NCBI GenBank assembly: GCA_008632985.1
Contig: QPGO01000050.1
Coordinates: 1 to 64,000, forward strand
DNA length: 64,000 nt
Source of the DNA: Psammoneis japonica
Lineage: Eukaryota
Direction: 5' to 3'
Part shown: piece by piece, positions 17,084 to 64,000 of the stretch
How the letters are laid out: the number at the start of each line of letters is the position of its first letter
Numbering within the stretch: position 1 is the first letter of the stretch
Notes under the pieces: generated by a model
What the model was told of the DNA's origin: nothing
The model's input: only the letters and a program-made list of their open reading frames with translations
Database searches by the model: none
Translations under genes and position numbers: made by a program

Positions 17084-19932
17084 ATGGCAGATCCACCTAT
17101 AGGTAATGGATCAGTCGAGAGCAATGCGAGCTTGGCCATGATGCTTCGAGAATGTGCCGATGCGATTGAACGAAACGAGTTGAGTCCCGTTGTTTATCAA
17201 ACGTGGGGAGCTCTTCATGCGTTTGTCAAGCAAAATGGCGGCGGAACCCAGTCGCGTGTCACCAAGACCACCACCAGACACATTCCAGCAACGCCACAGC
17301 CAGAATCGACTCCAGACACGTCAGCAGACAATGTCTTTTCAGCAGAGGCATCGGCTGATTTTGCTGAAGATAAACCGTTTGATGAAAGCAGTCCACCTCG
17401 GCAGACGACTCACTCATCTGAAAGCAACGACGCTACCAGTACAAATCACTTGGGAAGCAAGAGTAAGGACGTTTTTAGTAATTTAGGGGGCTTTTCGAAA
17501 AAGCTTGGAAAGCAGTTTGGCCTGCACCCGACGAAGCATCCTGCTTCGGAGTCTCAGAAACAAGCCACCTCGAAAAAGAATTCGGAACGATTCAAGGCTG
17601 ATTTGGCATCAGAAGTGGCAAGCGCAGCTGCCGACGAGTCAACAGACGCGGCTTCTGTTAAGAAACCATCTTCGTCAGACACCTTCCGAACGTCAGCGTC
17701 CACTACGAGCGGACCTTCAGCCACCAACAAGAAGAAGCCCTCCTTTCATCGGCCAACCAATCCCAATACAACCTTGATCGCCAATGGATGGGTGGAACAA
17801 CAACGCCGTTCCAAAATGAGATTCGCATGGAAGGAAGTATTGGCGAGTCTGGTCGAGGGCAGAACTCCACAAGAAGAAACGACTCTATGGATTCAACGAC
17901 AAATCACCAATGCACAGGGCAAGCCCGAACTGGAAGCGCTGCATCAAATTCCCATGAAGTGGTTGGAGTCGGTCGCGTTTGTGGACTTTTCGGCGGACAA
18001 TCGGTTTACTGTCAAGGTCTTTAACCTTGCCGAAGAATTTCAATTTCGTTGTGCGGATGCCGAAAGCGCTCAAAACTGGGTAATCACACTTCGTTCGGTC
18101 AGTGATATCGTCAAGAAGCAAAAGCCCGGCCAGCATGATGGCAATATTCGAGAGGTTGTGGGTAATCTCAATGATTGGGGAGAAGGTAGCACGGTTTCGA
18201 ACAGTCATACAGAACGATCAAGTCATCGCATGACCGTCAAGGAACTCCAAGCGATTGCTCATGGGGCTGGTTACAATACCAGCGGTATGGAACGAGCAGA
18301 GTTGGAGCGTCTCGTGACCAGTATCGCCATGCAAAGGACACCTTCGGTCGATGTGGAGGCAGAGCAACGACACAAACAAGAACAGGAACGGCACAGGTTG
18401 CAACAAGAGGAAGAGAGACGCAAACAACAAGAGGAGGAGCAGTCAGGAGGCAACCGCAGGATCCAGAACCGTCGCGTCCTAGGAGACCTATTTCCGAATT
18501 GCAGTCCATTGCTCATGCGGCGGGGTACAGTACAAGTGGTATGGAAAGAACCGAATTAGAAAGATTGGTAGCATCACTATCGGTGGACGAAACCGATACT
18601 TCGCCGCAACATCGACCTGATCCCGAGCCGTCTCATCCTCGAAAAACGATTTCAGAGTTGCAGGCAATCGCTCACGGTGCAGGCTACAACACGAGCGGAA
18701 TGGAGCGAGCCGAATTGGAGAGATTAGTAGCAAAGATCGATGCTGACGAAGCGAATCTTCAAAAACAAAAGGATGCTGCACTCGAGGCTCAACGACGTCG
18801 TCAACAACATCAAGAAGATATGCACCGAAAGCAGGAAGAGGAACGACAACGACGTGCGGCATTGGAAGCGGATCAAAAGAGAAGACAGGCGGAGGAGGAG
18901 CGACAAAGACGGGCGGCGTTGGAAGCAGAGCAACAGAGAAGACAAGCGGAAGAGGAGAGGAGGCGAGCAGCGGAGGCCGAGGATCGCAAGAGGCAAGAAG
19001 AACAGCGTAGATTGTTGGAGGAACACCAGAAGCGACAGGCTGCCGCCGCCGCCGCCGCAGCAGAGCAACAACGGAGACAGGAGGAAGAAATGAGAAGGAG
19101 GGTTGCAGAACAACAAGCTGCTGTCGAGAGACGTCAGAAAGAACAGGCGGAGGAACAACGAAAGAGACAAGAGTGGCAGAGAAGTCAATGGCAGGCACAG
19201 CAGGCCGCACAAGCAGCACAGCAACGTGCGGAATGGGAAAAGAAATGGCAGGAACAACAACGACAGCAGCAACAACAGTATGCGCAGCCCCAACCTGCAT
19301 ATCAGGGACAGCCACGACCAACACAGCAGCAACCACCGCCGTTCAACGCTGCACCGCCACCGCAGAACAAGGGTTATCGCCCGCCACCGCCTCAGGCACC
19401 TGGATACAAGCCTCCTCCCCCGCCTTCGGGTGGATACAATCCTCCACCAGCACCGCCACCTCCACCACAAAATCATCCTGCATCGCCAGCCGATATGAAG
19501 TACGCGAAAATGGCGGACCAATCAGATGATACCACGCAAGCCGCAATCACCAACATTAAGAGAAACCTCTTGTTGAATTGGGCCTTACAACCTCCCATGA
19601 ATCAGATACTTCGTCCAATTGATGCCTTGATTACTACCATTCATACCGTCTTTCCTCCGGCATTCGGGGTGGCTGGTCACGAGTACTTTAAAAAGTGGAC
19701 ACCTATTGCAAGGGACTCAATTGTTACCGGTCCGGCCATGGGAGGAGCTCCCGACGATGCCAAGTTGAAAAAGGCGGTTCGGAAACTCCGGTTCTTCTTG
19801 CATCCAGACAAGCTTCCCCGTGATCTCAATGACGAGCAATCGTTCATGTGTAAAATGCTTTGGGATGTGATTTCGGACGCGTGGGAGGAATTTCACAAGA
19901 AGAATGAAGAGTTGGGGTGGATTCATAACTGA
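17084..19932 (+). CDS. Auxilin-like protein: PH domain + 3 helical (SAP/HeH-like) repeats + coiled coil + Pro-rich linker + C-terminal J domain
   Basis: PH-like 'IANGWVEQQRRSKMRFAWK...FQFRCADAESAQNWVITLR'; three 'ELQxIAHxAGYxTSGMERxELERLV' repeats; J domain 'LKKAVRKLRFFLHPDKL...LWDVISDAWEEF'. One frameshift near 18440 joins ORFs 16964-18559 and 18499-19932. Confidence 0.8.
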
Positions 19933-20648
19933 GCGACACGCCTGAAGCAGTGCGGTTGTTCATACCGGTATGGTTGATACTGGTGAGATTTCTTATGTAC
20001 GTACGCTCTGCTAGAAAGTAGCAAAGCTCGACAATGTATCCAGGGTAGCAATCGAACTAGAGTCCAATTGCCTGTATTTCGCGAACCATCATCCAAGCTA
20101 CTGAAAAAACCTTATGCGCATCTACAGGCTTCCTCCACTCTTTAGTGTATGCTCATTCCTACTCTCTAGAGTAGATATTAGACGAGACAAAGAGATTCAA
20201 GACGTTTCGACGGGGAGGAAATTATGGTTACGATTCGTGTGCGTCGAAATATTCAAAGCAACCACGGCACAAGCATGACAGAGGAGGCTCAACGTATCGC
20301 ATCCACTCTGGAGGGAATGAACGTGACGCAAATTCGCCGCCACGCCAGGAAAAAAGCTAACACTCAGGAAAGAAGCCAGGCCGATTCTCTATGAAGACTA
20401 CAACTCGAACGACGAGAGTGACGAGTCGGCGACGTTTCCCACTATGAAGAAATCTATGCCATCTTTGTCAACACCGGTTCCTTGCGGACGAAAGACAATC
20501 TCTAACTTCAAATGACGAGAATGAAACGCGAGTCGCAAAAGTTCAAAGCTTCGGCACACTAATTCATTTATAGTCTGAAAAGGAATAGACAGTGCTTTTG
20601 ACAATGACAAGGATTGCCACAGTTTTTTTTAATTTCTGGAGAGCCTTC

Positions 20649-20981
20649 TGAATTCTATGATGATTCGGTGAGTTGGTCGGGACTTGCTGGTTCTTCACTT
20701 GGTTGCCCCACCATGGCGGATCAAGACATGGCACATGCCTCTGGTTAGACAGTGGAATTCTTCCGCTTGACTTCTCCTCCACAATGATGCAAAATCACAT
20801 TGAACTCTGTGACTTGGTGAGTTGGTCGTGACCTGCTGGTTCTTCAGTTGGTTGCCCCACCACAATGAACCCTGACATGGTGTGTACCTCTGATTGGGCT
20901 GCAGAGTTTCCCCCCTTGACAAATCAAATTGAACCCCATGACTCAGTGCATTGGTTGCAACCTGCTGGGTTCTTCAGCTGG
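20649..20981 (+). repeat. Three degenerate ~130-150-bp direct repeats
   Basis: The core 'gttggtcg..ac.tgctggttcttca.ttgg' occurs in copies beginning near 20649, 20801 and 20930; the third copy is partial. Confidence 0.8.
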
Positions 20982-21946
20982 CAAATGCCTCTGACTGGTC
21001 AGATGGCAGAGTTCTTTGCTGCTGGAACTGTGCAAGTGTGCCTCTTTGTGCAGATCATTTTGCAGCAGCCCATTGGCCCTTTTTGAATCTTTGCTTCACA
21101 AGCAAAAGACCACAAAATGAACCTGCCAGAGTCTTTGCCATTGCACGCCAACAAAGAAAAGGCTTTTCTTGTCCTTGAGAACTCATCAAGAAACTTGCCA
21201 TTCTTGTGCCTCTTCTTCTTCTTCTTCTTCTTCTTGCTCTTGTGACACAAATGCCTCACCACCACTTTTTTCCTCATTGAGCAATCTGCCCCAAGTTCTT
21301 GAAAGGTCATCTGAGTTCACTTTGTGAACTTGTTCTGTGAGATTTCAAATTGTCTCCACTGACTCGTGATTGACACATGTTCCCCTGGTGCAAAAATTGT
21401 CTTTTGCCCACAGAGCTCAAGTGCTTGGCTCTGGCAGCTGTTTCTTTTTCTCCTTTCTGATTTTTTGGCTCATCTTTTTGAGCAGAGCTGGCATTGCTTT
21501 CTTTCATTGGTGCTGCTCCACTCAATTTTTTGCAGAACTGTGAACTCTCAACATCTGCTTTTGCTTTCCAAGCAATTGCCAGTCTTTCTTTCTGCCTGGC
21601 CAGGAGAGCAAGGTCCTCAAGTGTGCTGCTCCTTTTTTGTTGTGGTTGGCTCTGACTTGTGAAGAACATCATTGAATTTTGTTTCCAAAAAAAGAAAATG
21701 TGGTGAAGGAAATGGCATGGTGCTCTGGTTTGTCCCATGCGCAACAACAAAAAGTTGATGCTTGCAAACATTTTTTCAACCAGGGCTCTGTTGACATCAA
21801 ACACAACAAATGCAAAAGGAAACATCATCTGTGATGTGTGCTTTCTTGTGCAACTCTGTTTCTCTGGGAGAACTTTTGCAACTTTCTGACCTTGTCACAA
21901 GGCATCTCTCAACACAAAAAATTTCCACACAGAGGTTTTTGTCTTT

Positions 21947-22448
21947 AACCCTTCAACCACTGGACTTGAGCAAATCTCCGCGGGTGGAGATTTGCTCCTT
22001 TACATCACAAATGCAGCAAAATGAGTGATTTCAGACATGAACAACATTTTGTTCGCGCGATTTTGTTTTGGAACGCGCACTCACCAAAAATCTGGGGGAG
22101 CCCTTTTTGTAATTTAGAAAGTTCAATGTCAACTTTTAACACCGGGTTTTTTGCAAGCTTCATCCATGGACAGAGAGGAACTAAATCTCAACCTGCAACA
22201 ATGCAGGTTGTCATGAATTGCTGTCACAAATGGAGCAATGATGCCACACCCTTGGAGCAAATCTCCGCCGGTGGAGATTTGCTCCCAACAAGTGAATGCA
22301 CGTGGCACACTTTACGTGGATTCTACGCTGCATGACATTTTCATGCTGTGTTCATTGTGTTGTCACAAAAGTGCATGACACATCACAAATCCTCAAGTGG
22401 AGCAAATCTCCACCCATGGAGATTTGCTCCCCTGGTGGTTGAAGGGTC
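21947..22448. repeat. Inverted repeat pair with three GAGCAAATCTCC-N6-GGAGATTTGCTC palindromes (possible transposon end)
   Basis: Palindromes at 21968-21997, ~22254-22285 and ~22399-22430. 'aacccttcaaccac' (21947) is the reverse complement of 'gtggttgaagggtc' (22435-22448) with one mismatch. Confidence 0.8.
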
Positions 22449-22504
22449 AAGAGATGAGAATTTGTGAAGAACAAGATGAGCTGGCAGCTTGGCTTGACAA
22501 TGAA

Positions 22505-22672
22505 GAGGGGCAACAGCTTCAAGATGGAAGAGGACAAGTTCAGCAGAGCAAAACTTTGCAAGGTTGCCCATGATCTGAGAAATGTGAAGAGAGGCAACAG
22601 CTTCAAGTGGATGGCAAGGACAAGTTCAGCAGAGTGACACTTTGCAAGGTTGCCCATGATCTGAGCAATGTG
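22505..22672 (+). repeat. ~85-bp tandem duplication
   Basis: 'ggcaacagcttcaag...aggacaagttcagcagag..a.actttgcaaggttgcccatgatctgag.aatgtg' occurs twice. Confidence 0.85.
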
Positions 22673-24521
22673 CACAACATCTGTGACAGGCTCTTCCCGT
22701 TCATGGCACCTGGTGAAAACAAAGTTGTCTTTGAGAGTCTTGTTGACAAAAGGAGCATCTTGAATCTCTGAAAGGGGCAGAGATGCATGGAGATGGTGAG
22801 CAGTTGTGTGCATTGGTGCACAACAGCAAGTGCCAGCAGAAGTCCATTCCACCATCCACCACATTGACCTTGGGAAGAACTTTTCCCCAGTTGGAGAGAA
22901 CAGTCATTGACCAGTGGATCTTGAGATGCTTTCTGCTGCAAGCATCATGTGGTCCACAGCCAACACATTGGGAGCACTGGGGCCATCGAGTGTCCTCTCC
23001 AGTGCATCCATTTTACATGTTCAGGGGATGCAAGTGGGGGAGAAGCTCCAAAAGGAAAAATGGGTTAAGCCTGAGTGGGATTGGTGCTCACATCAACAAT
23101 GCAAAACCTGTGGGAGACAGCTGCTCACACACAGAATGAATCATGAAAAGAGATGACCTTCAAGCAACCCTCAGCCAGAGCTCACAATGGACAAAAATGA
23201 ACAATGGAAAGGAAAAAATTGAAGTGAAAGACAGAAAGCAACAGTTTCCAACAACTTGAGGAGCTGGCTTTTTCGAGCAGCAAATGGAGCCAGGATGTGT
23301 CCACAGACTTTTAGAACATCATCCATGTCTGAAGTGAAATTGTTCAGCACATTGACCCTTGATGGCATTGGGTTGGCAAAGGCACTCAGAAGCCAAGCAG
23401 CAAAACAGACCACAATGATTGTCTGAGAATGCCTTTTTGACAACAGCCAGATGAAGAGTCAAGACTTGGTCAAAGATCATCACAGACATCCAGACCAAAC
23501 AGGAAAAATGTGGTCAACTGGTTTGGATGACTGATGAGCCACATGAGCTGGACTTGGGGGCTTCATCATTGAAACAACCAGTTTTCAAAAAAGCAACAAC
23601 ACAGGCCATTTCAAACAGCAAAGAGAGCCAGGATCATCATGTGCTTGCAGGACCTTCAGAAAATCATCCACAGTCAGTGCCAGCAGCAAGGTGCCAACCA
23701 TCACAAGATGCCAGAGACTGCAGCTGCATAAAAAAAACAATGAGAAAGTTGTTGAGTTGACAGCCTGATGATTGTGCCACAAACTGGTGCAAAATTGGAC
23801 CAAAGTTGTGCAGAAATGTGTTTGATTTCAGTGCTGAAACATCGACATCTGCAGTGTATGGCTTTGCTCTTGATGGGAAGATCAATCAACAACTCCTTCC
23901 ACCAGCGTCAGTCAGATTGCACTCTCCAGAACCCAATTTGCATTGTCAAGCAGCCCTTGCAATGATGGCCACATTGTTGCTTGATCCCAGCCATTGTTTG
24001 CTCTTCCTGTCGCCATGAATGCTTGTCAACTGACTTGACTTTGGCATCACACCCACAATTTGACAATTTCCAACATCAACCCAGACCACAGCATTGGTCA
24101 ATCTGCACTTCATTGAGTGCCTCTTTGAAGCTGACAATTGGCAACAAATGCACTCTCAAAATTTGTGTGGCATGCAACCAACAAAGCTCAAGAACCTCAC
24201 ATTTCTGACTCACATCCCAGCCAATCATCCCACAAGATCCACTTTTGCTTGAACTTTAGATCAGGACAAAATGATGGAGAACAGATCACCCACTCATCAA
24301 AGTTGTTTCTTGCTTCTAGCAAAGAGAAACTTGTCTCAAAAAGATGCTGCTGCAAATTTCTCCATTCTCCTCAAGACATTTTGCCGCCACAAAACTGCCC
24401 CATGTTTCTCTTGGAACTCCCAGCACATTGCTTTTTGAAGTTTCACTCACCTGCTGCCACTCAGAAATCAAACCTTTGAACAAGTCACTCTGGTGGAGTT
24501 TGGAAATTCGAGGTTGCTGCA

Positions 24522-24738
24522 GTTGGGGACAAGGCAACATGGGGCCACAACACCACAAGATCAACCTTCTCTCACAGTGCTGCCTCCTGCAGGGGTCCAC
24601 CAGAGACCACCAGCACCCTCAGCTTGTTGTTGTTTGTTTGGTTGACAAGTGCCATTGTGGGCCCACCTTTTGCTGTGAAGTTGGGAAGTTCAAGTTTGCA
24701 CCAACCTGTTGGGGACAAGGCAACATGGGGCCACAACA
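24522..24738 (+). repeat. 31-bp exact direct repeat
   Basis: gttggggacaaggcaacatggggccacaaca at 24522-24552 and 24708-24738. Confidence 0.85.
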
Positions 24739-27497
24739 GCACACAGTCTCTGGGGGCTGCTGCCCTGGCTCTTTGTGGGCACACATCAAGTGCTGCAGCC
24801 ACGCTGACCCAGTTGACCTCTTGCTTGACCAGCTCATTGTCTGTGATTCCACCTGCACAAGACCAACTCCACAACCTCTTCTGACCTTCTGCCTGCACCA
24901 AGTTTCAACCATGATGAGAGCACAACTTCAACAAAGGTTGTTGTGCATGTGTGTGTGTGTGTTGGTTGCAAAGATCAGCTGCCACAGCAGCCTTCCTGCA
25001 CAAACAAACAAACAAACAAACAAACAAGCCACGTGGGTCAGCAGAAATGTGAAAATTTTAATGTCAACAAGAGCCAGTTGAGATCACAAAAACTGACACA
25101 TCAGTCTTCTTCAAAAACAGATGCACTGCATCTGATTGAAACAATGTTCAACATGTGTCCAGCTTCCAAACAAAAATGAGAGCTCACAGGCAAAACACTT
25201 CAGCAATGAAGACCAGTGAAATGACTCGCTCAAGTTCACTCAAATGATTTGAAACTTTGAAAGCATGTGCAACGAAAGGCTTGAAAATGGAAAGGGCGCA
25301 TCACTGCCACACAAAGCAACACAAAAATGAAGGATGCACATCCACACAACAGCACACAAACAATGACAAACTGGCTGCCAACACAAAGAGAAGTCAACGG
25401 CAGCAAGTCAAAAGTGTGACACTGGAGCAGGCAGCTTGCAATGAACAACAAAGCAACACTTTTCTTTTGCACTCAACTCATTTCTTGAAACCAACACAAG
25501 TTGACAAAAACCGCCAAGAAGGATGAGAAACAAAGTGCCGCAACATTGTGCACAGGCAAGCAGAAACAGCAGCATTGTGCCACACTTGCCAAAGAAAACA
25601 TGCCAAACTGACAATTTCTTTGCTGTCTTCTGCCAGGGATTTCTGTCATTTCTCACAATGAAAAGCTGTCACAAAAACCAAATCTCTCTTTGAAACATGA
25701 AAAGGATTGGAGAACAGGACACATGATGCCACAGCACAGCTGAGAAAGAACACCAAGATGCAAAACAGACTGCAAGAGACAGCTGGGCCAACAATGGGAC
25801 AGCAGCTTGAAGAACAGAGGGATCAAAGCCAGGCAACAGAGTGACACAGTGTGAAATGAGAGCATGTGTCAAATGTCAAACATTGTCAGGGTAGAAAGCA
25901 ATCACTGCTGGATGCCAAAATCACAGGGCTCGCTCCAATTGACAAATGAGCAAATCAAATTGTTGGTGAACTCCAGCCAACAAATGACCACAATTGATTG
26001 GATCAACGTGGGTGGCTGTGTGTGCACAGAAATGAGCCATGCATTTCATTGATTGTGTTGTTCTTTCCTGTTTTGTCAACTTGTGTGACAACAGACACTC
26101 TGACACCTGCAATTGTTGTGCCATGATTCTTGAGTTCAAAACAAATCTTGTCAAGAGCCCACATGCTGTGAGACCAAGTTTTCTTGAGTCTGGTTTCCTG
26201 CTTTGCCAATGCAGCCAATTGTCAAAACTGATTTGTTCACAAGCAACAAAGGAGCACTTGGCAAGAACACAGGTGTCTTGTTGAGCAATTTTCAACTCTG
26301 AACAAGAGCACCAGCTGCACTTTCCAAACAAACAAATGCAGGGTGTCAGCACTGCTCCTGGTGTGCTGTGCTGCAAGTTCCCATCTGGAGCTGAAACTCT
26401 CATTTTGTTGGGTGCACCAGGCTGTGCAGGCAGTTTGCTGGGTGAGAAACTTCTGGACAATTTGTGTGGTTTTCTGTGAATTTCTGTGACAGATGCAACT
26501 GGCACTGCACAAGCAAATCGAGCTCAAAAATGAAAGCGATTTTTTCTTCATGTCTCTCATGTTGCAAATTGTCAATGTGGGTGTGGTGCTGTGCTGCTGT
26601 CCTCATGAACTTACTCACTCTCAAACCAACAGCCTGCCGAAAAGGCAAGAAGGGCGAAAGTGGGTTGGCTGGGCTTGTTTTGTGCCTTGCTCCACACAAC
26701 AACCTGGTTGACATTTTGAGTTTTGTTGCCATTTGTTGGGTCTTGCAGAGAGCTTTTTGACTTGCTGTGCATGGCATTTGAGAAGTTTCCTTCTCTCCCT
26801 CAGATGACATTCTTCACAGCCCTCAGCTCCGCTGACTTGATGCTGGCCACAAGCAAAAGTTGATGGTGCGCACATGATGGCTGGCACACTTTTCTTTGAA
26901 ATGTGTTGACTGAACTTTGAGTTGTCATGGATGGATGATGCCTTTGCTTCATTTGATGGTGGTGAGTTGCACAAACCCACTGATTTTTTGTCATGGACAA
27001 AAGAGCAATTTTGGGCTCAGCTTTGAGAGTGTCAACAATGACTGAGAAGAGCCCAAACAACAAGCACATGTTGCAGGTCCAATGTTTCAAAGCAGATGAG
27101 TCTTCAGATTGGCTGACTTGACTTTGGCTGCGGCCCTTTGTGGCCAGCACACATCTTTTTCTCCTAGAACAAGCATCTTGGAGCAATGATGGATCGGTCG
27201 ATCTTGCAGGGACCTCCATTGATGTTTGATTGCCAGGTGCCAGGGGATCGAGTGAGCCAGTCGTCGTCATCCTGTGCCACGTGGATGGAGACGAAAAACT
27301 GGCGCGCGGTCGATCGGTGCATGGTGAGTGGTGGGAGTGACGTGTTACAGTATGCGTGCGCGCTTTTGCGCTTTCTGCTCTCTCCCGCCCTCTGCCGCAC
27401 GATGTTGCCGTCAGCCATCAGTGTGTGTTGTTCTCTGATGAGACCTTCTGCTTTCGACACTCAACCGGTCTTCTTATTGCGTGCCGTAGCAACAAGG

Positions 27498-28463
27498 ATG
27501 AAGTCTCTCCATTTCGGTTGTAACCAGCCATGTCTGGTGGTATTGACACTGTTGATTGTGAGTGCGTCAAGCTTCGCACCAAGAGTTGCCTTCACAACTC
27601 CCAAAACCATTGAAAAGTCACCCACAACTTCTTTATGGCTGAAACGGAGAGGACGTCCGAGAGGTCCACTTCGGACTGTGGAAGTGAAACCCACAATGAA
27701 TGAAGAAATCACATACGATGAGCTGAGGGTTGTACTTGCCGATCCAAAGGGTGGGAAAGACGAAGCTCTCGGCATCATAACAAAAGCTGACGCTCTCGCC
27801 AAGGCGCAAGAGCTGGGTGGCTTGGACGTTATTTTGATCAATGAAAACTCGAGTCCACCTGTTTGCAAGATTGTGGATTACTCAAAATACCGTTACATGA
27901 AGGAGAAGAAGGCTAAAGAACTGAAAAAGGCTTCCAAGGCTTCTGAAGTGAAAGAAGTCAAAATGTCTTACAAAATCGATGTCCACGACTATGGTGTTAG
28001 GAAGAAGAATGCTTCGAAATTCATTAATCAAGGCAACCGTGTCAAGATCACAATTATGTTTCGCGGACGAGAAGTGCAGCACGACAAACTGGGATACGAA
28101 CTTATTGATAAGCTGGCACTCGATCTGGAAGATATTTGCAACAAAGAGGGACGTCCAGTACGCGAAGGACGGAACTTGTCTGTCATTTTGTCTCCTCGAC
28201 CAGAAGTATTAAAAGCCGTGAACGATGGGCGCCGTGCGGAAGAAAAAGCGAAAAAGAAGAAGCGAGAAGCGCGACTCAAAGAGCAAAAGCATTCCAAAGC
28301 GGAGCAGGTGGAGGATAACAGTGCTAGCCTTGACGATGGTATCAACCTCAACCAGGTCGCACTTGAAGAAAGTGCCTCGGATCTTGATAGCGACGAAGAC
28401 TTGGAATCATCCCTTGATAGCTTGTTGGGCGCTGATGGAGTCAAAGATGACCTTTTTAACTAG
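27498..28463 (+). CDS. infC: Translation initiation factor IF-3, plastid-targeted
   Basis: Presequence with 'SASSF'. IF3 motifs 'MNEEI...ELRV', 'PPVCKIVDYSKYRY', 'VKEVKMSYKIDVHDY', 'GNRVKITIMFRGRE'. Confidence 0.92.
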   Translation: MKSLHFGCNQPCLVVLTLLIVSASSFAPRVAFTTPKTIEKSPTTSLWLKRRGRPRGPLRTVEVKPTMNEEITYDELRVVLADPKGGKDEALGIITKADALAKAQELGGLDVILINENSSPPVCKIVDYSKYRYMKEKKAKELKKASKASEVKEVKMSYKIDVHDYGVRKKNASKFINQGNRVKITIMFRGREVQHDKLGYELIDKLALDLEDICNKEGRPVREGRNLSVILSPRPEVLKAVNDGRRAEEKAKKKKREARLKEQKHSKAEQVEDNSASLDDGINLNQVALEESASDLDSDEDLESSLDSLLGADGVKDDLFN

Positions 28464-34269: not shown

Positions 34270-34399
34270 CTGCGATCATCACCAACGACCAACGACGACA
34301 AATTCGCGAGCTCCAGGCAGACGAGCTCTGCAAATCTTTGTGAGTATTTTTATCCCTCATGAATGTTTGTTTTCATTGGAATTTGCAGATCTTTATGAG

Positions 34400-35450
34400 C
34401 ACTTTCGCCACTCCTCTGCCGTGTGTCACAGCTTTCTCGTGCCATTTTCTTTTTCCCATTGCACTCACTTTTGCGCTCTTTTCATCGACTGCTCACTCTG
34501 CTCATTCCTTGTCATCAACCAAAGTCTTGCCAAGAACATGTGCCACCACTGTCACACCACAATGACAGCCCTGAAGAAAGAAAGAGGATGACTGCTTGGT
34601 CACGACAACAACCACAAGTGTGGCCCCCTCATCTGATGGCCAACTTCTGCTGCCACACCTTGGCATGCAATGCTGCTGCATTTTGGGGTGGGAAGATCAA
34701 AGCAACAGCAACAACATGAGATTCCCAAAGTTGTTGAGTGGTCACTGCACCACAAAGAACACACTTTCTTTTCAGTGCACAGAGAGTCAGCCGCGCGAGA
34801 TTTTTTTGTGGCTTTGGCACAAAGAACATGTTGTGTGCACGATGTCTCTCCACAAAAACAATGTCAGAGACCCAGCAGGTGCAGCTGGTTGAATGCACCA
34901 GAGGAAAACACCAACAAAAAACATGGTTTCCTTTGTGCTGCATGGGTGGTGGTCATGGGATCAGCACTCAACAAGCTGGCACACAGATCCTTTGGTTGAG
35001 TGCAGGAGCAGCAGCTGCTGCCACCTCAAGCAGCCTGAGGCACTTGACAGTGGCGCACCTTTTTCTCATGAAGGCAGGTGCCAGTGCCCCATGTTGCTGA
35101 TGTGACAGAAACCTCATTTGCAGCATTGGCCAACAATGTGAGCCGCTTCTTGGCGGGGCCTCAATGGCTGCAAGATGCTGACAAGCTGAGCAAGCAGCTG
35201 CAGCTTCCTGTGCAAAGCCATGCACAGTCAGTCAAAGACAAAGGTGCTGCAAATGGACTCCAGGCCAGAGAGCAACATTAAATTTGTGTCCCACCCTCCA
35301 AACTCAGCTGGCAATGCCCAGCCACTGACTTTAGTTGCACAAGAGTTCTGGGGCAACTTTGACACACACAAAATGGAGACAACACATTGCTCATGAACAA
35401 AAAATGAGTGCCCTCAAGACTTGGAAAGTTGCTCATTTTTCTTTGAACAG
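34400..35450. other. CpG- and TpA-depleted hypermutated domain 2 (~1 kb)
   Basis: Only about two TA in ~1 kb (TTAA ~35279, TTAG ~35332). Few CG apart from a CCGCGCG patch at ~34791. Confidence 0.85.
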
Positions 35451-55629: not shown

Positions 55630-58600
55630 GTTTTGAGAGTGAAGTGACAAACCTCCAGTTTGCAGGGCCGAGTGAGGAGCTCTCAACATCCTCTGAGCAA
55701 AGAGTTGGTTTTGGGGCAATGGCAGGTGTGTGAAACTTTGAAGTCTCGATCAAGTGCTTGGGTCGTCGCTCAGAGACAAGCTGCGCTGGTGCTCCTGGCT
55801 GTGTGCCTCAAGAGACAAAACAAAAGATGTCAAATGCTGATGCAGGAAAAAAGTTGGCTGATGCAGCTTGAGCAATGAATTTTTTGTGCTTCTGCAGCAC
55901 CGCTTCATGCACAACAATCAACCATCATGAATGGCAGCTGCCAGAGGTGCATCATCAAGGGTTCTTGGTGTGGTTGTCAAAAATCCCTGGCAATTGGCAT
56001 GTGCTGGGAGAACTCTGTTGTCGACATCCACATGGCAGCACCAGCAACTTTGAAGAAGCTTTCATGCTGGGCACAATGGTGTGTGTTTGCAATTTAAAGA
56101 GATGTCAAACACAGCTCGCACACAACATTGTGAATGTGTGTGTTGACGTTGGAAGCATGGTGGCTGCACAACATTCCCATGTCAAGTTTTTGGATCTTGA
56201 GATGTTGTTGCAACATCAAAACATGTGCTCAGCTGCAAGTCATTGCACATTAAAGCCCAAGTTGCACACAAGCAACTGCGCCACTTCTCAAGCTGGCTCT
56301 TGCTTGAATGTCATGTTGCTCAAGTTCCACAAACATTTTTTTCATTTTGGCAGCACACATCAAACACAATGGAGCAGAAGCTGAGATGCAAAGTTGACTC
56401 AGCTCATTTGGCAGAAATTCCAAGTGCTTTTTTGATGCCATTGCTTGCACGCTGTCCTCCTGCAATGCTGGTGTGCAGCCACATCTCACACTCCTGATTG
56501 CAACTGGTCAATGTCACACTTTGAAAAGAGCCATTTGTCAACAAAGGGCAACAATCAGAGCTCAAGCAATTGCAAACACTTGGCTCTTCTGAGCTGCCAC
56601 AGCTCTTGTGGGCAGCCAAGTTTTTCAAGATTTGGAGCTTCAAGGCAGTGAGCACACCATCTTGCTGAGCTGCTTCTGCTCCAGGCAGAGTGGACAAGCT
56701 TTCAAACTGGCCTCCCCAAGATGTTGCACTGCAACAAAGAACCAGAGGAAGAAGAGAGCACATGATGGAGCTGCTTTGCCACTGCTTTTTCAGCAAAGAC
56801 ACTCTGAACAAGTGCTGCTGATGTGACACAATTTGTGAAAATGCAGTGTGTTGCACTTGCCCCCTGAGTTGGTCACACCTGAAAATCATTGAGACACAGC
56901 CAATTTTCTGAATGCATTGCATGCTTCCATGCACACTTCTGTCAAAACATGACAGCACATCCTGGCAGCTGGTGGTGCATGACCACAGCTGACTTGTGGA
57001 GTGCTTTTCTTTGGCTTCATTCTTGGATGCATTGCTGCAGCAACTTCTTTGTCACCCAGTCTCTGCAAGACAAGCCCAAAAGCTGTTGACCTTGTTTTCT
57101 GATGGAAGCTGCGGCATGATCTTTCTCTGGCAAGAGACTTGTTCCTTTTGTTTCATGTTTCTGGCCAAACTTCTAAAATGGCCAATCTTCAACCAGCTTT
57201 TCTGTTCCAAAACTCCAGTGTGTTGCAATGCCAGGCACTTTGTCCACAATGCAAAAGGCATTTCTTTGCATCCTCTGCTGCACTGCCATGCTTTGAGCTT
57301 GTCTCATGTCATGCACTTGCAGCATCAGCAAGGGAAGTGGACCACAGCCATGCAAAAAAATTGGCACACTCAGAGAGGCAAACATGTGAAAGTCCAAAGC
57401 AGGGGCACCTCACACAGCTGCCTTGCTTTGAGGTCAGGGATGCGCAGGGGTGAGGATTGAAATTTTTCATGGGCCACAGATTTCCCTCACACTTCACTGT
57501 GTTGTTCTGACCTCCCCAGGAACACCCCCAAACACTTCTGCATTTGTCAAATCCTTGTTGGGGCTGTTGAGCCACTGTGACAGCTGCACATTTGAAGCTT
57601 CAAATGCACCATTCATCAGCCTGTGCCCTGTTGTTGGGTTGAAATTGCTGCCAATTTTTGCTGAAACATGATGTCTCTCATGGGGGATGAGTGGCACCTT
57701 CTGGGAACCTCAGACATGTGGCACATTTGACAGGCCATTTGCACATCTGCAGTTGCCAAGGAAGGAGCCAAACACCATGCATGGTCATGAAGTCATGACT
57801 TGTCTGTGCACTTTGTTGTGTCTCATAAAATGGACAAAGTTTGACCCATTGCCAGAATTTTAGTCTTGGAACATGCAAGCATTTGGTGCAATGCATCCAG
57901 ATTTTTCTCAAAAACATTGCACACCTGCAAACATCATCTGCCTTCACCCCTGTGGATCCACCCTCAAGGGCACATGCAGGAACATCCAAAACCTTGTGTC
58001 TGTCAATGCCATTCTCCAATTAGCTGAGTGTGGTCAATGCCAGCAAACAAAGACACAGAAGAACACCTTGTGTTGCAAAGCATCAAAAAAAGGTGAGCAG
58101 CAAGAGGAAACTCTGCCCCCCTCAAGTGTGAGTTGGCATGACTGCTTGAAATGAGAGTCAAGGGAAGTGACCACAGCTTGGTGAAAACACATGAGAGCAC
58201 TGTCATTTGCACTTCATTTCTCCAGGTCTCCATCATGGCTGCACTGAACAAACTTTGGAAAAGTGGGCAGATGACAAAGGATTTTGTGTCAACAAATGAT
58301 GTGAAAGTGACATTTTCCCACAAGCGTTAGAATGTCTTGAACAAGGGGGGGGCAAACAATTGCTTTGGAGGCAACTCAAATCAAACATTGATGAGTGCCC
58401 CACCCCACATGCAGATGTGCACACAGATGCCAACAAGACAAGTGCCAATGGTTGCACTTCCTCATCCAACAAGATGTGCTGCCCTGACCAAAAAGCAAAC
58501 AACTTGGAGCTTGAAGAAGAGCTCTTTTGGTGGTTGTCCAATGTGCTGAAGAACATGTTGGTTTGTTGAGTGGCAAGGGGGGGCAGGTTTGTGGACTCAA

Positions 58601-61600
58601 GGAGCACAGCTTGTGGCAACTTTAATGCAAAAGCACAACATTGAAGCATGTGACAGGCATGTGGTGTGTGTGAGGGTGCATGTCTTGGACACTTGAGCAA
58701 TCATCTCCAAAACAGTGGTCGGAGAGCTGTCTTTGAACACGGTGCAATGCACAGCTGGGGTTGTTTTTAAAATTGGTGTTTCGCTCCTTGAGTTCTTTTG
58801 GCAGGTGCAAAGAAGTGGGCTTTGGCTGACTTGGCAGCACAGAGAAAGCAGAGTTCTCAGACTTGGCACTGAGGAGGAGGGCAAACATGGTTTGCAGCAT
58901 GGGGGCCAGCAAAGTGGCACATTGGCGCAAACCTGTGGGGGGGCATGTGGCATCAGGATGATCTGCTGATTTAGCAGCTGCCACAGAAGACAGCACCCAC
59001 ATTTTGTCCACACAGCATCAAGGCCACAAATGTCATTTGGCTTGATGACATGCACCGCACTTGACTTCTGGCAGCAAAATTGCACACGGAGCTCATCAAG
59101 ACAAAACAGGCACATTCTTAGAGGGCAGGACATGCAGCATTGCTGCACATGAGTTTCTTTGAGAAGCTCAGTTTTCTGACAGCAGAGCACAGCAGCCCCC
59201 CACCACAGGATTTGGCAAAAGGCATGCCACTTGGGTGCACTGGCCCTGCAAGTCTGGCGGATCAAGCTGGAAGGTCATGAGCTTTGGCATCAGGGAAGGA
59301 AGGGTCATTGGCATGTTGTCAATGAGACCATGGTCTTTCAGAACAGTGGTGTGTCAATTTTGAGGCAGCCACCAATGTCACCTCATTTGTCAGAGATGTG
59401 GGTGCACCCACTCAAATCTTTGGCATGTGCTGGTTGATCTTGTCATCTGGTGGGGGGTCACACACAGGTTGGGCCATTGTGTTTTGGTGTGCACACAAAA
59501 TCAAGCAATGGTGGGTGAACGCTCATTGCATGTTGGCTGCTTGTTCAAACTGGTGTTTGCATGTGCAGCAAGAGCACAAACCAGGTGCAATCAGCATCTT
59601 TGCCACTGAGTGTGGTTTTCAGTGTTTCAGTGCAGCATTTGTTGTGCAGCCCAAATCACTGCCAAGGAAGAAGTTGATGCCCTTTGGCAGCTCTGCAAGA
59701 GAAAACCTCTTGGCACCACAGCATGTTCTTGGCAAGCCAGTGCACAAAACCAGCTTGTTGTTCAAAGTTTTGCTTAAAAAGGACAGATGACAGCAGCCCA
59801 TTGGAGAGTGCCAGAAAAAGAAATTGATTGCGTCATTGTCTTGCTGCTGCCCACACCAACTCCTCTGACCACCCACATTCCCCAACACACAAAAGGGCAG
59901 CATGGACAATTTGAGCACTGTTTGGCACATTGTCGTGAAACAATGCCTGCCACATGCTGCAGTTCCAGCAAGCTGCAACAGTGCCCAGTTGAACAAGCAA
60001 GCCTGGTCACACTGCATGGGACAAGCTGCCAAAAACAAAGAACATGCTGCAGAAAAACTGAGCTCAGCAGGAGTCTCCAAGAAAGATGCAGTGCTTGAAA
60101 GGATGAAAAAATGCACTTCCTGGGACAAACATCTAAAGGAAAGTCCAACAAGGACAACAATGGTCAGGAGAGAAAATGCCTTGACACTGGCACACAATGA
60201 ATGTGCTGGAAAGTTGTGCTGAGCCAGAGTGACAAATGCAAAACCAGCATCAAGCGGCAGTGCATCAAGGTGTGTCCAATTGAGAGCACTCTGAGGCCCC
60301 TCTTTGGGATGCCAGGTGACAACCTTTGAGAAATGAAAGCCAGCTGCAAGAATGCTTGGAATGAAAAAGTTGGCAAGAAGCAAGATGACAAAACCTGCCC
60401 ATTGTTGTCTCACAAATGTGCCCAGATGTGCAGAATTGAGCTTGAATTTTGCACTGAAAGGCTGGTGCAAAAGGAGCTGAAACCATGCGGAATTTCACTT
60501 AGAGAATGCACTTCAATCTGGAATGAAAATCAAAGAGATTTGACACCATGGCATTGCCAAACCCACCAAATGCAGGCACAACAAAGCATCCCTTCAAAAC
60601 CCTTGATGTTTTGTTGTTGGCACAACTGCCTGACACTCCAACAGGCCCGGCAGAGAGCCGCGCCCACAAGGGACAATTTCTTGGGTGCTGATGTGAAATT
60701 GTGCCCATGAGAAGAGAGTTCTTGTGCAAGAGCATGGAGATCAACACATGGCTTGCTTTTTTTCATTTGTGTCCACCCTGCTGATTGAGCCAGCTTTTTC
60801 ACTGAAATTTTCTCACTTTGAATGTGGGAACATGGGGGGGTGCTTGTGCTTGACAGACTGCCACCATGCTGAAGGCAGAATGACAGTCTTGCCCTTTGGC
60901 ACATCAGCATTTTCAACAATGTGCCAGTGTTTTCCACAAGTGTGGTCTTGTTTTCTTTCACCATGGCCTTCTTGAGCTCACAAGCACTGCACTTGCAGAA
61001 AGGAGCTTGAACATGCAAAGAGTGCCCAGGTTGTCAAAGGCTTTCATGCTGTGCAGAGTGGCACATCCTCCAACTGGCTGCATGCAGAAAAATGTCTGAA
61101 ACACCATGCCATCAAAACAAAATCACATCATTGTGGCCAATGCCATTGTGAAGGGGTGGCACACGTGGATGAAAAAACCTCTTCTGGGGATCAAACAGAG
61201 TGTGTGTGCCTTTTCTTTCAAATTGAAGCTGTTGCAGACAGTGCTGCTGGAACCCAGAGCTGCTGTGCTGATGCAGTCAAAAGTTCTGGAGCTGGCATGA
61301 CTGGTGTGGAATCTTGCAGATCTTCTGGAAGACCTGCAGCTAGAAAGATGCAAAGTGCAGCATCTTCTAAAGGCAAAGTCAGGAAGCAGAAGATCTGTGG
61401 GAGAGGGAGAATCACACTTCTCTTGTTCTCTTGCAGAAACCCAAAAGTTGTTCAACAAGAGGCCCAAGTTTGTCATTGCACAGGTGTGTTGTCTTCTGTT
61501 GCATCATGCTTTTGCTTTGGGATCAGAGCCAAGGATGCATGCACCATGTGCTCCAACATCTCCACTGGAGAAACACTGGTCTCATGTCCAATGAATCAAT

Positions 61601-64000
61601 CAACAAACTGACAAAACAACTTTGTGACCTTTAACTGCATGTGAAGAACTTGCAGGATGATGAGGAGCACATCACATGGCAACCTCCACCAAGGCCCACA
61701 GAGGCACATCAGCCAACTTGGCAGCAGGAGGAGCATCAAGAGTTCACCAAACAACTTTCCTGAATGACAACTTCAGGGCAAGTGACAGAGAGTGCAAGTT
61801 GCAAGCACAGCCAAGGTTGTCTTTTGGAAGAGAGGCAAGTGACCCAAGCCAACTGTTGTGACACAGCAACTGAGACAATTGTGAAGATGGAGTGCCTGCT
61901 TGCTGACAACAGATTGTCACTCCAACAAGCCTCTCTCACAACTTCTTTTGCTGCCTGTGCACATCAGAGAACTGGCAACTGGCATGTCAAGCCCAAGCCC
62001 TGCACTGTCACAAGCTCCCAAGAGGCAGCTGAATTGACAAGCCACCAACTTGCAGAGTGTCAGTCAGCGACCCCAAGGTGAGGTGGAAAAAACAAGAACA
62101 GATGGCATGACACAGCTGAATTTGTGGGTGTGTGCCCAGACCTCAAGGCCACCACAGCATGCAACATGTCATTGCCAACAAGGACACATTCACCAAGACA
62201 ACAAGGACAACCATTGCTGAGCATGTGGGGTGCACCAAGTGTGCTGGTGCAGGAGAGCTGTGCATGGGCATGGCAGAGCCAAGGCTCCCAGCCCTCACAC
62301 TCCACCTGCTGGCCCCACAACCAACCCTTTGGAGGCCATGATTGAGCAATGGAAACTGGCCTGCTGAGCCTGCCATGACAGTGCAAAGTGGAGACATGCC
62401 AGCACCTCAAGGGATTTTGCTCTGGCACTGGGGCAATGCTCCCAGACTGCAAGGAACAGGGTGGAGGCCGCACATCAAGATTGGCCTGTGGTGAATGCAG
62501 CCTCTGATGTGACAGAGCTGCTGGCTGCAATCAGGGCCTGCATGGCTCAATGCCAGACTTTGCACTGCCACCCAGTGTGCATCATCATCAAGGCCAAGTT
62601 GGCTTCTTGCTCTTCAAGCAGGGAAGGCACACATCCACCAGAGATGGCTGTTTGATTTGATGCCTGCAACTGCAACAACAGCTCATTGTGACTTGAGTGT
62701 CCCCAGCTCTTGAAGATGCCTGAAATGTTGCCAATGAGTGCAACAAGACGGCTGACACCCAAAAACACTTTTTCATTGGGATGGAGAAACAATGCTTGCT
62801 CCCACCACTTTGTGCCTCAAAACAGCACAGCCCATGTCACGGGGAGAAGAAAGAAACACATCAAAACATTTAAAATGATGTTTTCAGACAGACAAAGCTG
62901 AGCCAGACCCTGATGGTCTGCATTGGAGGGGGGGAGAGGTCCAGCAGCGCAGTCACCAGCAACACTGGAACAAATTTCATTGATCTCACCCAAGAGCTTC
63001 TTTCCCATCAGCTGCACAGAACAGGCCATGCAGAGTGACCCCAGCTCTGGACAAAGAGCCAACCTTTTGGCCAGAGATGTGAAGAAGTTGCTGGGCACAA
63101 GTCAAAGCAAAAGCCACATGAAAGTCAAGGTAAAAAATGCTGAGCACTGACAAATGGTCTTGCACTCTGCAAGCAACAGTGCATGGAAATCCCTTCCAGT
63201 GTCCCCCAGTGAAATTTTCCATGTGCCCAATCCACAGAAAGAGCAGAAATGCTGGAAAACAAAGGAAATGAAATTTGGGTGATGCCTCTCCCAACACTGC
63301 TGTGCGGAGTGACTCAAAGACCAGTGGTGTCATTGAAATGACACCAACAATGTCCTCAGGGGATGACCGCAGCCATGGCATGTTGGAGCCGTCCCAAGCT
63401 TTTCCCATCATGATGTCACTCCAGCCCCCAACAAAGTGCTCTGTTTCATTCTGGTTTTCATCTTGAGCTGTTTCTGTTGACTGTGATGTGACTTGGGCTG
63501 CAGGTGGCTTTCTCTCATGACTTGCTCCTTGTTTGGCTGAGTCACCACACTTGAGGAGAGAGGAGTCATCATGTGTCACATGTTTGCTCAAACAACATGG
63601 CAAGTCGCCAGAGCCACAAGGAGACATCAGCACAAATGAAGGCATCAGAGAAAGCACAATCCCAGGGATGGAGCTGTGCCATGCATGGGTTTGTTGCACC
63701 ACTTGCACATGGTGTTGAGCACAAAATGCAAAGATGCATGATGCACATGGTGGCAGGAGCTTTGTGTCTGTGCAAGGGATTTTAGAGGCAGTGCAAAACA
63801 TTTGAGTCAGAATGTTTTGATGTTTGGCACTAAAAAGGGGCTGCATTTTCTGCTGAACACAAAACCTTCAAGCGACAATGACACACATTGTTGTTTTGTG
63901 GAATTCCGCTGGACACAAAACAATCATTTCTTAACAAAAATCACGTGTTGGATTTCACACCCATGCAAGCCATCAAGCAAGCTTGCAAGGATGCTGTGTG
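55630..64000. other. CpG- and TpA-depleted hypermutated domain 3 (continues past the window end)
   Basis: Only about 20-25 TA by eye in 55800-64000 and few CG, with TG/CA strongly enriched. ORFs are nearly Tyr-free; e.g. 59619-60470 has no Tyr in 283 aa. Confidence 0.92.

What the first reader, a model, noticed from the sequence alone, without database searches (positions are those of the whole stretch)
20649..20981. Internal repeats record the mutations directly: TA/TG/CA and CG/TG/CA at aligned sites
Seen: three repeat copies at the left edge of domain 1 align as tcTAtg (20656) / tcTGtg (20808) / ccCAtg (20937), and as attCGgtg / actTGgtg / actCAgtg. Also gacatggCACATGcctctg (20725) aligns with gacatggTGTGTAcctctg (20874). 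The outermost copy retains the most CG and the innermost retains none. Inference: ancestral TA and CG were each independently resolved to TG or CA after duplication, with intensity rising inward. This is in-window evidence for in situ mutation rather than inherited composition.
Basis: seen in the sequence. Interest (0 to 1): 0.78.

Follow-up and report, generated by a model that had tools for sequence, protein, structure and literature searches.

The report
Diatom repeats purged of CG and TA
A decayed tandem repeat at the edge of a junk-DNA block in a diatom genome shows that the two-letter steps CG and TA were turned into TG or CA after the copies arose, evidence for a targeted mutation process that has so far been measured directly only in one unrelated alga.

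Summary
Paired copies show CA opposite TG far more often than chance allows: 4 against 0.9 expected, and 3 against 0.35 expected. The ratio of such swaps to single-step differences is 7:5, against 0:16 in a control repeat outside the blocks (P=0.0007).

The repeat sits at the left edge of a 6.5-kb intergenic block. Three such blocks in the window (20650-27190, 34400-35410, 55640-64000+) almost lack both CG and TA. Observed/expected is CG 0.09-0.21 and TA 0.03-0.04, against 0.99 and 0.60 outside. The missing CG+TA equals the extra TG+CA.

A young piggyBac-type MITE inside block 1 has target-site copies TTAA and TCAA, which polarises one TA->CA change at this locus.

The host is a pennate diatom. 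The closest known case is TpA->TpG/CpA hypermutation in Bigelowiella natans (2026 preprint), which does not mention CpG.

Weak points: TA is shown to be ancestral at only two sites. Transitions per position are no more frequent at these dinucleotides than elsewhere. The inward gradient rests on 8 sites. No outgroup copies were available.

The parts
20649..20802 (.). Tandem repeat copy 1 (outermost). It keeps 4 CG and 2 TA and carries a 3-base ATG insertion at 20657-20659.
   Evidence: The 3-base deletion in 4 other contigs is.
20803..20931 (.). Tandem repeat copy 2. It keeps 1 CG and 1 TA. It is 72% identical to copy 1 over 129 aligned bases, with 25 transitions and 11 transversions.
20932..21010 (.). 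Tandem repeat copy 3 (innermost, partial, with an internal deletion of about 29 nt). It has no CG and no TA.
   Evidence: (families D2-D5)
20650..27190 (.). Block D1: an intergenic, repeat-derived block almost free of CG and TA. Excluding the MITE, observed/expected is CG 0.10-0.12 and TA 0.03. Parts of it are multi-copy in the genome.
   Evidence: Depth up to 3776 against a baseline of ~60 is. No Pfam match in its 42 ORFs of >=70 aa.
21945..22450 (.). piggyBac-type MITE inserted into D1. Its inverted terminal repeats run CCCTTCAACCAC...GTGGTTGAAGGG. The target-site duplication reads TTAA on the left (21945-21948) and TCAA on the right (22447-22450). The element is only partly depleted (CG 0.51, TA 0.21).
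   Evidence: High copy number and the empty-site joints 21946->22461 and 21946->22478 are.
22501..22672 (.). A second internal tandem repeat (86-bp unit, 2 copies, 89% identical) with one CA<->TG swap.
34400..35410 (.). Block D2: a single-copy 1-kb block with the same composition (CG 0.21, TA 0.03).
   Evidence: One contig spans 29562-36522 at depth 62.
55640..64000 (.). Block D3: at least 8.4 kb with the same composition (CG 0.09, TA 0.04). It runs off the end of the window.
   Evidence: Its ORFs are no longer than composition predicts.

Best explanation
The flagged 333 bases are a decayed local tandem array of 2.6 copies of a 130-150-bp non-coding unit. It forms the left border of a 6.5-kb intergenic block of repeat-derived DNA in a pennate diatom.

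This block, and two others in the window, have undergone a near-complete, transition-only conversion of the two self-complementary pyrimidine-purine steps, CpG and TpA, into TpG or CpA. The conversion acted equally on both strands. After the unit duplicated, each copy resolved its CG and TA sites independently. Homologous sites therefore now read identically, or as CA opposite TG, or, in the less affected border copy, still as CG or TA.

What is shown:
- The swaps between copies.
- The mass balance between lost CG+TA and gained TG+CA.
- The co-location of the two depletions.
- One polarised TA->CA change.

What is inferred:
- CG loss comes from deamination of 5-methylcytosine in CG-methylated transposon chromatin.
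- TA loss comes from a TpA-specific A->G (T->C) hypermutation like the one measured in Bigelowiella natans.
- Both are directed at the same silenced or foreign DNA.
For: 1. Swaps between copies.
- c1-c2 has 4 swaps (expected 0.9); c2-c3 has 3 (expected 0.35); the 86-bp repeat has 1 (expected 0.014).
- Among aligned YR-YR dinucleotides, c1-c2 gives 17 same, 4 swapped, 4 single-step of 25. c2-c3 gives 6, 3, 1 of 10. The control pair outside the blocks (7221/46633) gives 152, 0, 16 of 168.
- Swap:single is 7:5 against 0:16, P=0.0007.

2. Polarised columns. The CG/TG/CA column, and the TA/TG/CA column under one gap placement, favour CG and TA ancestors by parsimony.

3. Block composition.
- Outside the blocks CG is 0.99 and TA 0.60. 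In D1b they are 0.10 and 0.03, in D2 0.21 and 0.03, in D3 0.09 and 0.04.
- The CG+TA deficit is 8.3-9.0 points and the TG+CA excess is 8.7-9.4 points in D1b, D2 and D3.
- The YR total inside is 0.236-0.250, against 0.239+-0.010 in 91 outside windows.

4. MITE target-site duplication. It reads TTAA on the left and TCAA on the right. Paralogous empty sites read TTGA....

5. Age dependence. The young, high-copy MITE inside D1 keeps CG 0.51 and TA 0.21.

6. The sequence is real. Contigs from a sequencing run bridge the block borders with 0-6 differences.

7. Precedent. In B. natans mutation-accumulation lines, 230 of 231 mutations in integrated viral DNA were A->G or T->C. All of these GC-biased mutations fell on TpA, and the genome holds 124 clusters that are TpA-poor and CpA+TpG-rich (preprint 10.64898/2026.01.13.699255; abstract, Results and Discussion read).
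Against: - No outgroup copies could be obtained, so most swaps cannot be assigned to a CG or a TA ancestor.
- Within the three copies, TA as the ancestral state rests on one gap-dependent column. Two TA columns fit TA being newly derived equally well.
- In c1-c2 the per-position transition rate at YR dinucleotides (12 transitions on ~47% of positions) equals that elsewhere (13).
- The copies are old (11 transversions in 129), so ordinary divergence contributes many of the differences.
- The MITE family as a whole already has a shifted composition. The window copy shows only one well-supported difference from the other copies in a truncated table. Some depletion can therefore be inherited along transposon lineages.
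- Differences between the window and the run at the same locus do not show a direction.
- In 269 kb of other diatom-like metagenome contigs, only 1 of 1025 windows, a 300-bp patch, looked similar. Such contigs tend to end at repeats.
- Methylation and the enzymes involved are untested.
Confidence: 0.68

Rival explanations
1. Inherited composition. The sequences were already CG- and TA-free when they arrived, either because transposon lineages accumulated the changes elsewhere or because the DNA came from a source with that composition. On this view the three copies diverged before this locus was formed.
For: - The MITE family is partly depleted as a family (CG 0.51, TA 0.21).
- Its window copy shows only one well-supported difference from ~34 other contigs (truncated table).
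- Block borders are sharp, within 50-170 bp, like insertion borders.
- Short fragments of other copies of the unit exist: 4 contigs at 20657.
Against: - The array is close to single-copy (depth 85 against 61).
- Swaps need CG or TA to have been present at the time of duplication.
- The border copy is significantly intermediate: 6/36 unresolved, against 41% outside (P 0.003) and 3% inside (P 0.0007).
- The TTAA->TCAA change happened after the MITE inserted here.
- D2 is single-copy yet equally depleted.
- I recall no genome with CG and TA both at 3-10% of expectation (recalled, not searched).
Confidence: 0.15
2. Only CpG decay is mutational, through 5mC deamination. The lack of TA has another cause, such as selection against TA or low TA in the ancestor, and all swaps descend from CG.
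For: - Swaps cannot be assigned to TA ancestors.
- The background already has low TA (0.60).
- In the control pair, 12 of 35 transitions are CG<->TG/CA, so CpG is hypermutable genome-wide, whereas only 4 of 35 are TA<->TG/CA.
Against: - TA is depleted about 20-fold relative to background, more thoroughly than CG.
- The TG+CA excess (9.4 points in D3) is larger than the CG deficit alone (about 5.2 points) and matches CG+TA together.
- The blocks are non-coding: none of 113 ORFs has a Pfam match, and ORF lengths fit composition. There is therefore no obvious selective agent.
- The target-site duplication shows a TA->CA change.
- TpA->TpG/CpA hypermutation has been measured directly in B. natans.
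Confidence: 0.1
3. Strand-specific editing of a transposition intermediate (APOBEC- or ADAR-like action on RNA or cDNA) or of the non-transcribed strand, before or during insertion.
For: ADAR prefers a U 5' of the edited A. Deaminase editing of retroelements is known in animals (cited in the preprint's Discussion).
Against: - TG and CA are balanced inside the blocks (D3: 949 against 1019).
- The mean |TG-CA| asymmetry in 500-bp windows is 0.107 inside (n=29) and 0.153 outside (n=94), which is no excess.
- A single-copy block (D2) and a DNA-transposon target site are affected too.
Confidence: 0.04
4. Chance resemblance or a sequencing or assembly artefact.
For: The sample is small: 129 and 78 aligned bases. 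One key column depends on gap placement.
Against: - Repeat significance: E 2.7e-14.
- Permutation tests on the swaps.
- Accurate contigs from a sequencing run reproduce the blocks and their borders, although that run may be the data from which the window was assembled.
Confidence: 0.03

Closest known systems
TpA-targeted hypermutation of integrated viral DNA in Bigelowiella natans (Mettrop et al., bioRxiv 10.64898/2026.01.13.699255; abstract, Results and Discussion read; supplements closed)
   Same: The product signature is the same: TpA lost, TpG and CpA gained, on both strands. The signature is clustered in kb-scale blocks of mostly unannotatable, transposon- or virus-like DNA, next to normal host genes.
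   Different: - The host is different: a stramenopile diatom here, a rhizarian there.
- Here CpG is lost in the same blocks. The word CpG does not occur in that paper.
- Depletion here is almost complete (TA 0.03-0.04). Their active NCLDV region has Rho 0.45.
- No viral genes are recognisable here.
- No de novo mutations were measured here.
CpG decay of methylated transposons by 5-methylcytosine deamination (vertebrates, plants, some invertebrates and fungi; general knowledge)
   Same: CpG is lost and TpG/CpA gained, confined to repeat DNA, in an organism whose background CpG is normal (0.99). Diatom transposons are known to be CG-methylated (PMC2806351, passage seen).
   Different: That process does not touch TpA. 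Here TpA is depleted even more than CpG, and the two footprints coincide: there is no CG-only 400-bp window, and the only TA-only windows lie at block edges. Methylation was not measured here.
Repeat-induced point mutation (RIP) of ascomycete fungi
   Same: It is a transition-only mutation process confined to repeated or foreign DNA that leaves a strong dinucleotide signature and degrades coding capacity.
   Different: The direction is opposite. RIP turns CpA/TpG into TpA. Here TpA/ApT is 0.05 in D3 against 0.66 outside, and (CpA+TpG)/(ApC+GpT) is 2.10 against 1.20 (computed from the counts). A single-copy block (D2) is also affected.
piggyBac-superfamily MITEs (for the island at 21945-22450 only)
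   Same: TTAA target site, terminal inverted repeats beginning CCC...GGG, about 0.5 kb, non-coding, high copy number.
   Different: No autonomous partner or transposase was seen in the window. The feature 'TIR starts with CCC' is recalled, not tested against a library.

Membership tests
B. natans-type TpA hypermutation | [quoted passage not shown] | tested here: met
   TA observed/expected is 0.03-0.04, and TG and CA are 1.77-1.95, in three blocks of 1-8.4 kb. 58 of 255 500-bp windows are co-depleted.
B. natans-type TpA hypermutation | The direction is TpA -> TpG/CpA (A->G or T->C), not the reverse | tested here: inconclusive
   Two sites point this way: the MITE target-site duplication TTAA/TCAA and one gap-dependent TA/TG/CA column. 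Two TA columns are equivocal. No outgroup was available.
B. natans-type TpA hypermutation | Elevated de novo mutation rate in the region, measured in mutation-accumulation lines | not testable with these tools
   The only data are window-versus-run differences: 14 in 2101 bp of D1, plus 0 in 933 bp, against 13 in 12853 bp outside. This comparison is confounded by coding constraint and by paralogues.
B. natans-type TpA hypermutation | The target is integrated viral or foreign DNA | tested here: inconclusive
   D1 is partly multi-copy and holds a MITE. None of 113 ORFs has a Pfam match. D2 is single-copy.
Methylation-driven CpG decay | CpG deficit matched by TpG/CpA excess in repeats, with normal CpG elsewhere | tested here: met
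   CG is 0.09-0.21 inside and 0.99 outside.
Methylation-driven CpG decay | The blocks carry 5-methylcytosine at CG | not testable with these tools
   No methylation data are available.
Fungal RIP | C->T at CpA, giving TpA enrichment (high TpA/ApT, low (CpA+TpG)/(ApC+GpT)) | tested here: not met
   In D3, TpA/ApT = 22/443 = 0.05 and (CpA+TpG)/(ApC+GpT) = 1968/935 = 2.10 (counts). This is the opposite of RIP.
Deaminase editing of retroelement intermediates (APOBEC/ADAR type) | Strand-asymmetric products | tested here: not met
   TG-against-CA asymmetry is 0.107 inside and 0.153 outside; Mann-Whitney P=0.57.
piggyBac-type MITE (island 21945-22450) | TTAA target-site duplication flanking terminal inverted repeats, with no coding capacity | tested here: met
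   TTAA on the left and TCAA on the right. The 54-nt arms are 83% identical. No Pfam match. Paralogous empty sites appear as joints.

The most novel reading that the evidence does not exclude
Diatoms may possess a RIP-like genome defence with the opposite chemistry. A single process acting on double-stranded DNA, directed at silenced repeat or foreign DNA, would erase both self-complementary pyrimidine-purine steps (CpG and TpA) by transitions on either strand, spreading to a sharp border.

This would link the TpA hypermutation just reported in a rhizarian alga with cytosine-methylation decay. It would suggest a shared, possibly ancient, mechanism in the SAR group. Two candidates are one deaminase acting on both A and C, and oxidation of the 5-methylpyrimidines T and 5mC. 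Both are speculation.
Probability: 0.3. Interest if true: 0.85.

Novelty: new variant of a known kind. Interest (0 to 1): 0.68.

Why it matters
If the reading holds, a second, distantly related group of algae mutates TpA in unwanted DNA, and this group matters ecologically. Here the process is coupled in space with CpG loss, which the one existing report does not mention.

That would make the mechanism directly testable: is it one enzyme or two, and what targets it and sets the border? Diatoms offer genetics, methylome methods and mutation-accumulation lines for such tests.

There are practical consequences too. Such blocks are invisible to homology-based transposon annotation. They produce long spurious ORFs because the stop codons TAA and TAG are absent. 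They can be found simply by their dinucleotide signature.

Tried and rejected
- Earlier notes of this scan: nothing relevant.
- More paralogues within the window: self-blastn and a purine/pyrimidine-collapsed seed search found no homology between the three blocks. Short repeat families were not counted because they may be chance matches.
- Coding content: none of 113 stop-to-stop ORFs of >=70 aa in the blocks matched Pfam at E<=0.01. Eight weak matches at E 0.014-0.043 all lie below the curated cut-offs. The longest ORFs (293 and 291 aa in D3, 253 aa in D1b) are not longer than second-order Markov simulations predict (P 0.13 and 0.11). Their translations look like non-coding sequence.
- Rfam and tRNA scans of the window: no matches.
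- Strand asymmetry of TG against CA as a test for single-strand deamination: none beyond background.
- Polarity from run-versus-window differences: 12 of the 24 rows that one search lists between 20650 and 27190 interconvert CG/TA and TG/CA. That is close to the random expectation, because about 40-47% of block positions lie in TG or CA.
- Other diatoms: 34 metagenome loci next to PRP3 relatives (269 kb) gave 1 of 1025 co-depleted 500-bp windows, a 300-bp patch in L015. This is uninformative because such contigs tend to break at repeats.
- RNA evidence: no RNA holder was listed.
- Literature: searches found no report of joint CpG and TpA loss in diatoms or other algae. Only the B. natans preprint was found. 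PMC2806351 and PMC4504042 were checked by term search only.

Full report
**What is at the coordinates**

The stretch 20649-21010 holds three head-to-tail copies of a non-coding unit. They are c1 at 20649-20802, c2 at 20803-20931, and a partial c3 from 20932 to about 21010.
- c1 and c2 match without gaps over 111 nt at 74% identity, with period 149.
- Self-blastn gives E 2.7e-14.
- With purines and pyrimidines collapsed, they match over 112 nt, whereas a shuffled window gave no such match.
- c3 shares the first ~52 nt. It then lacks about 29 nt, and its tail aligns ambiguously.

CG/TA counts are 4/2 in c1, 1/1 in c2 and 0/0 in c3.

**Formal tally**

A global alignment of c1 and c2 has 129 aligned positions, 93 identical, with 25 transitions and 11 transversions. 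c2-c3 has 78 aligned positions, with 12 transitions and 7 transversions. The copies are therefore old.

In c1-c2, 12 of the 25 transitions lie in CG/TA/TG/CA interconversions. These dinucleotides cover about 47% of c1 (36 dinucleotides in 152 nt).

What is abnormal is how the changes are paired.
- Of 25 aligned YR-YR dinucleotides in c1-c2, 17 are the same, 4 read CA opposite TG, and 4 differ by one step.
- In c2-c3 the counts are 6, 3 and 1 of 10.
- In a control repeat outside the blocks (7221-8027 against 46633-47428, 788 aligned positions, 35 transitions) the counts are 152, 0 and 16 of 168.

Placing the observed number of transitions at random gives 0.87-0.99 expected swaps for c1-c2 (P 0.005-0.01) and 0.35-0.39 for c2-c3 (P 0.002). 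A second tandem repeat inside the block (22501-22672) adds one swap against 0.014 expected. Swap to single-step is 7:5 in the edge array against 0:16 in the control (Fisher P=0.0007).

A CA/TG swap needs a CG or TA intermediate. An excess of swaps together with a shortage of single-step differences is what one expects if CG and TA are unstable in every copy and each is resolved at random to TG or CA.

**Direction**
- The column attCGgtg/actTGgtg/actCAgtg needs two steps from a CG ancestor and three from any other ancestor.
- The column tcTAtg/tcTGtg/ccCAtg gives the same argument for TA. However, it sits beside a 3-base indel, and an equally scoring gap placement removes it.
- Four other contigs of a sequencing run lack exactly these three bases.
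- Two further TA columns (TG/TA/TG at 20883 and TA/TG/TG at 20746) fit TA loss and TA gain equally well.

Within the array, then, ancestral CG is reasonably supported and ancestral TA only thinly.

**The setting explains the array**

The window comes from a pennate diatom. Its PRP3 protein is 55-59% identical to diatom proteins, among them Cylindrotheca, a Bacillariaceae MAG, Amphora, Mayamaea and Nitzschia. The flanking ORFs are ordinary eukaryotic genes.

Background observed/expected values are CG 0.99 and TA 0.60. Three sharply bounded intergenic blocks differ.

| Block | Coordinates | CG o/e | TA o/e |
|---|---|---|---|
| D1 | 20650-27190 | 0.10-0.12 | 0.03 |
| D2 | 34400-35410 | 0.21 | 0.03 |
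| D3 | 55640-64000, running off the window | 0.09 | 0.04 |

In these blocks TG and CA stand at 1.62-1.95.

The total share of pyrimidine-purine steps is unchanged: 0.236-0.250 in D1b, D2 and D3, and 0.213 in the T-rich D1a, against 0.239+-0.010 in 91 outside windows. The CG+TA deficit (8.3-9.0 points) equals the TG+CA excess (8.7-9.4 points). The blocks thus look like ordinary DNA in which only the choice among the four YR steps was rewritten by transitions.

The two depletions coincide. No 400-bp window is CG-poor with normal TA, and the only TA-poor, CG-normal windows are block edges.

TG and CA are balanced (949 against 1019 in D3). Local asymmetry is no larger than outside. The process therefore acts on both strands, which argues against editing of a single-stranded intermediate.

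**Nature of the blocks**

Contigs of one public sequencing run were laid on 19000-38999. Single-copy depth is about 60, but parts of D1 reach 213-3776, so those parts are repeats. D2, and the array itself (depth 85), are essentially single-copy. These contigs bridge the block borders with 0-6 differences, so the composition is not an assembly artefact, although the run may be the data from which the window was assembled.

None of 113 ORFs of >=70 aa in the blocks has a significant Pfam match. The long ORFs are what a TA-free sequence yields by chance, because it has no TAA or TAG stop codons.

**An independent polarity marker**

The one island in D1 that keeps CG and TA (21945-22450; CG 0.51, TA 0.21) is a high-copy MITE.
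- It has 54-nt inverted ends, CCCTTCAACCAC...GTGGTTGAAGGG.
- It is flanked by TTAA on the left and TCAA on the right.
- Elements of this type duplicate a TTAA target (general knowledge). The right copy has therefore changed TA->CA since the insertion, at this locus.
- Paralogous copies of the surrounding repeat that lack the MITE read TTGA... at that point (joints and inserted letters).

This gives TA, CA and TG at one site whose state at the time of insertion is fixed by the mechanism. It is one site only. The table of differences is truncated, so I cannot say how many of the MITE's internal TA and CG sites have changed.

**Edge behaviour**

c1 has 6 of 36 YR steps still as CG or TA. This is fewer than the 41% outside (P 0.003) and more than the 3% inside (P 0.0007). 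c1 against c2+c3 (6/36 against 2/49) gives only P=0.066.

At the left edges of D2 and D3, CG persists 90-170 bp further inward than TA. A transition zone of about 150 bp therefore seems to be general. The two dinucleotides do not decay in exact step, which hints at two co-targeted processes rather than one.

**Comparison with what is known**

The only matching report I found is a 2026 preprint on Bigelowiella natans.
- In mutation-accumulation lines, 230 of 231 mutations in an integrated giant virus and a virophage were A->G or T->C.
- All of these GC-biased mutations fell on TpA.
- The genome holds 124 clusters that are TpA-poor and CpA+TpG-rich.
- An ADAT2-like deaminase is proposed as the agent.
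- I read the abstract, Results and Discussion. The supplements are closed.

That paper does not contain the word CpG. Seven literature searches found nothing on joint CG and TA loss in diatoms or other algae.

Fungal RIP has the opposite signature. In D3, TpA/ApT is 0.05 and (CpA+TpG)/(ApC+GpT) is 2.10, from the counts. Plain methylation-driven CpG decay explains only half of the pattern.

**Verdict**

Independent post-duplication resolution of unstable YR steps is well supported. The CG ancestry is supported. The TA ancestry rests on two sites plus the block-wide mass balance and the precedent. The inward gradient and the strict 'in situ' claim are plausible but thinly sampled.

The underlying phenomenon is a set of blocks of repeat-derived DNA in a diatom stripped of both CpG and TpA. 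It appears to be a new variant of a process described so far only in one preprint on a distant alga.

Noticed in passing
window 21945-22450: A piggyBac-type MITE (TTAA/TCAA target-site duplication, 54-nt inverted ends) with about 60-fold depth in the sequencing run. It contains three copies of a 31-nt palindrome, GGAGCAAATCTCC-N6-GGAGATTTGCTCC, whose centres differ as CGCG, CGCC and CATG.
   Followed up: partly
window 34400-35410: A single-copy 1-kb block with the same CG/TA-free composition. It starts about 130 bp upstream of the minus-strand ORF 33067-34275. High copy number at >=88% identity is therefore not needed for a block to be affected.
   Followed up: partly
window 34390-34500 and 55620-55790: At the left edges of blocks D2 and D3 the TA-free zone begins 90-170 bp before the CG-free zone. 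The two depletions are co-located but do not share exact borders.
   Followed up: partly
window 7221-8027 and 46633-47428: An 0.8-kb segment of the PRP3 gene region is duplicated 39.4 kb away at 89% identity. 12 of its 35 transitions are CG<->TG/CA, so CpG is also the most mutable site in normal DNA of this genome.
   Followed up: partly
window 6312-6608: A nearly perfect 150-bp tandem duplication (95-100% identity) in normal-composition DNA.
   Followed up: no
window 38734-40164: An ORF that fuses a UPF0029 (IMPACT-type) domain with a 2OG-Fe(II) oxygenase (AlkB-like) domain.
   Followed up: no
window 55360-55560: A very TA-rich patch (20 TA in 200 bp) lies directly before the TA-free block D3, which makes the border especially abrupt.
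   Followed up: no
window 36-63, 40291-40332, 46127-46218; L015 about 14300-14470: Short CTAG/TAGCTAC-rich repeats occur in intergenic DNA of the window. A similar motif occurs in a related metagenome contig. It may be a shared intergenic or promoter motif of these diatoms.
   Followed up: no
window 19000-38999: Differences between the window and same-locus contigs of the run are denser in D1 (14 in 2101 bp, plus 0 in 933 bp) than outside (13 in 12853 bp). This fits hypermutability, but it is confounded by coding constraint and by paralogues.
   Followed up: partly
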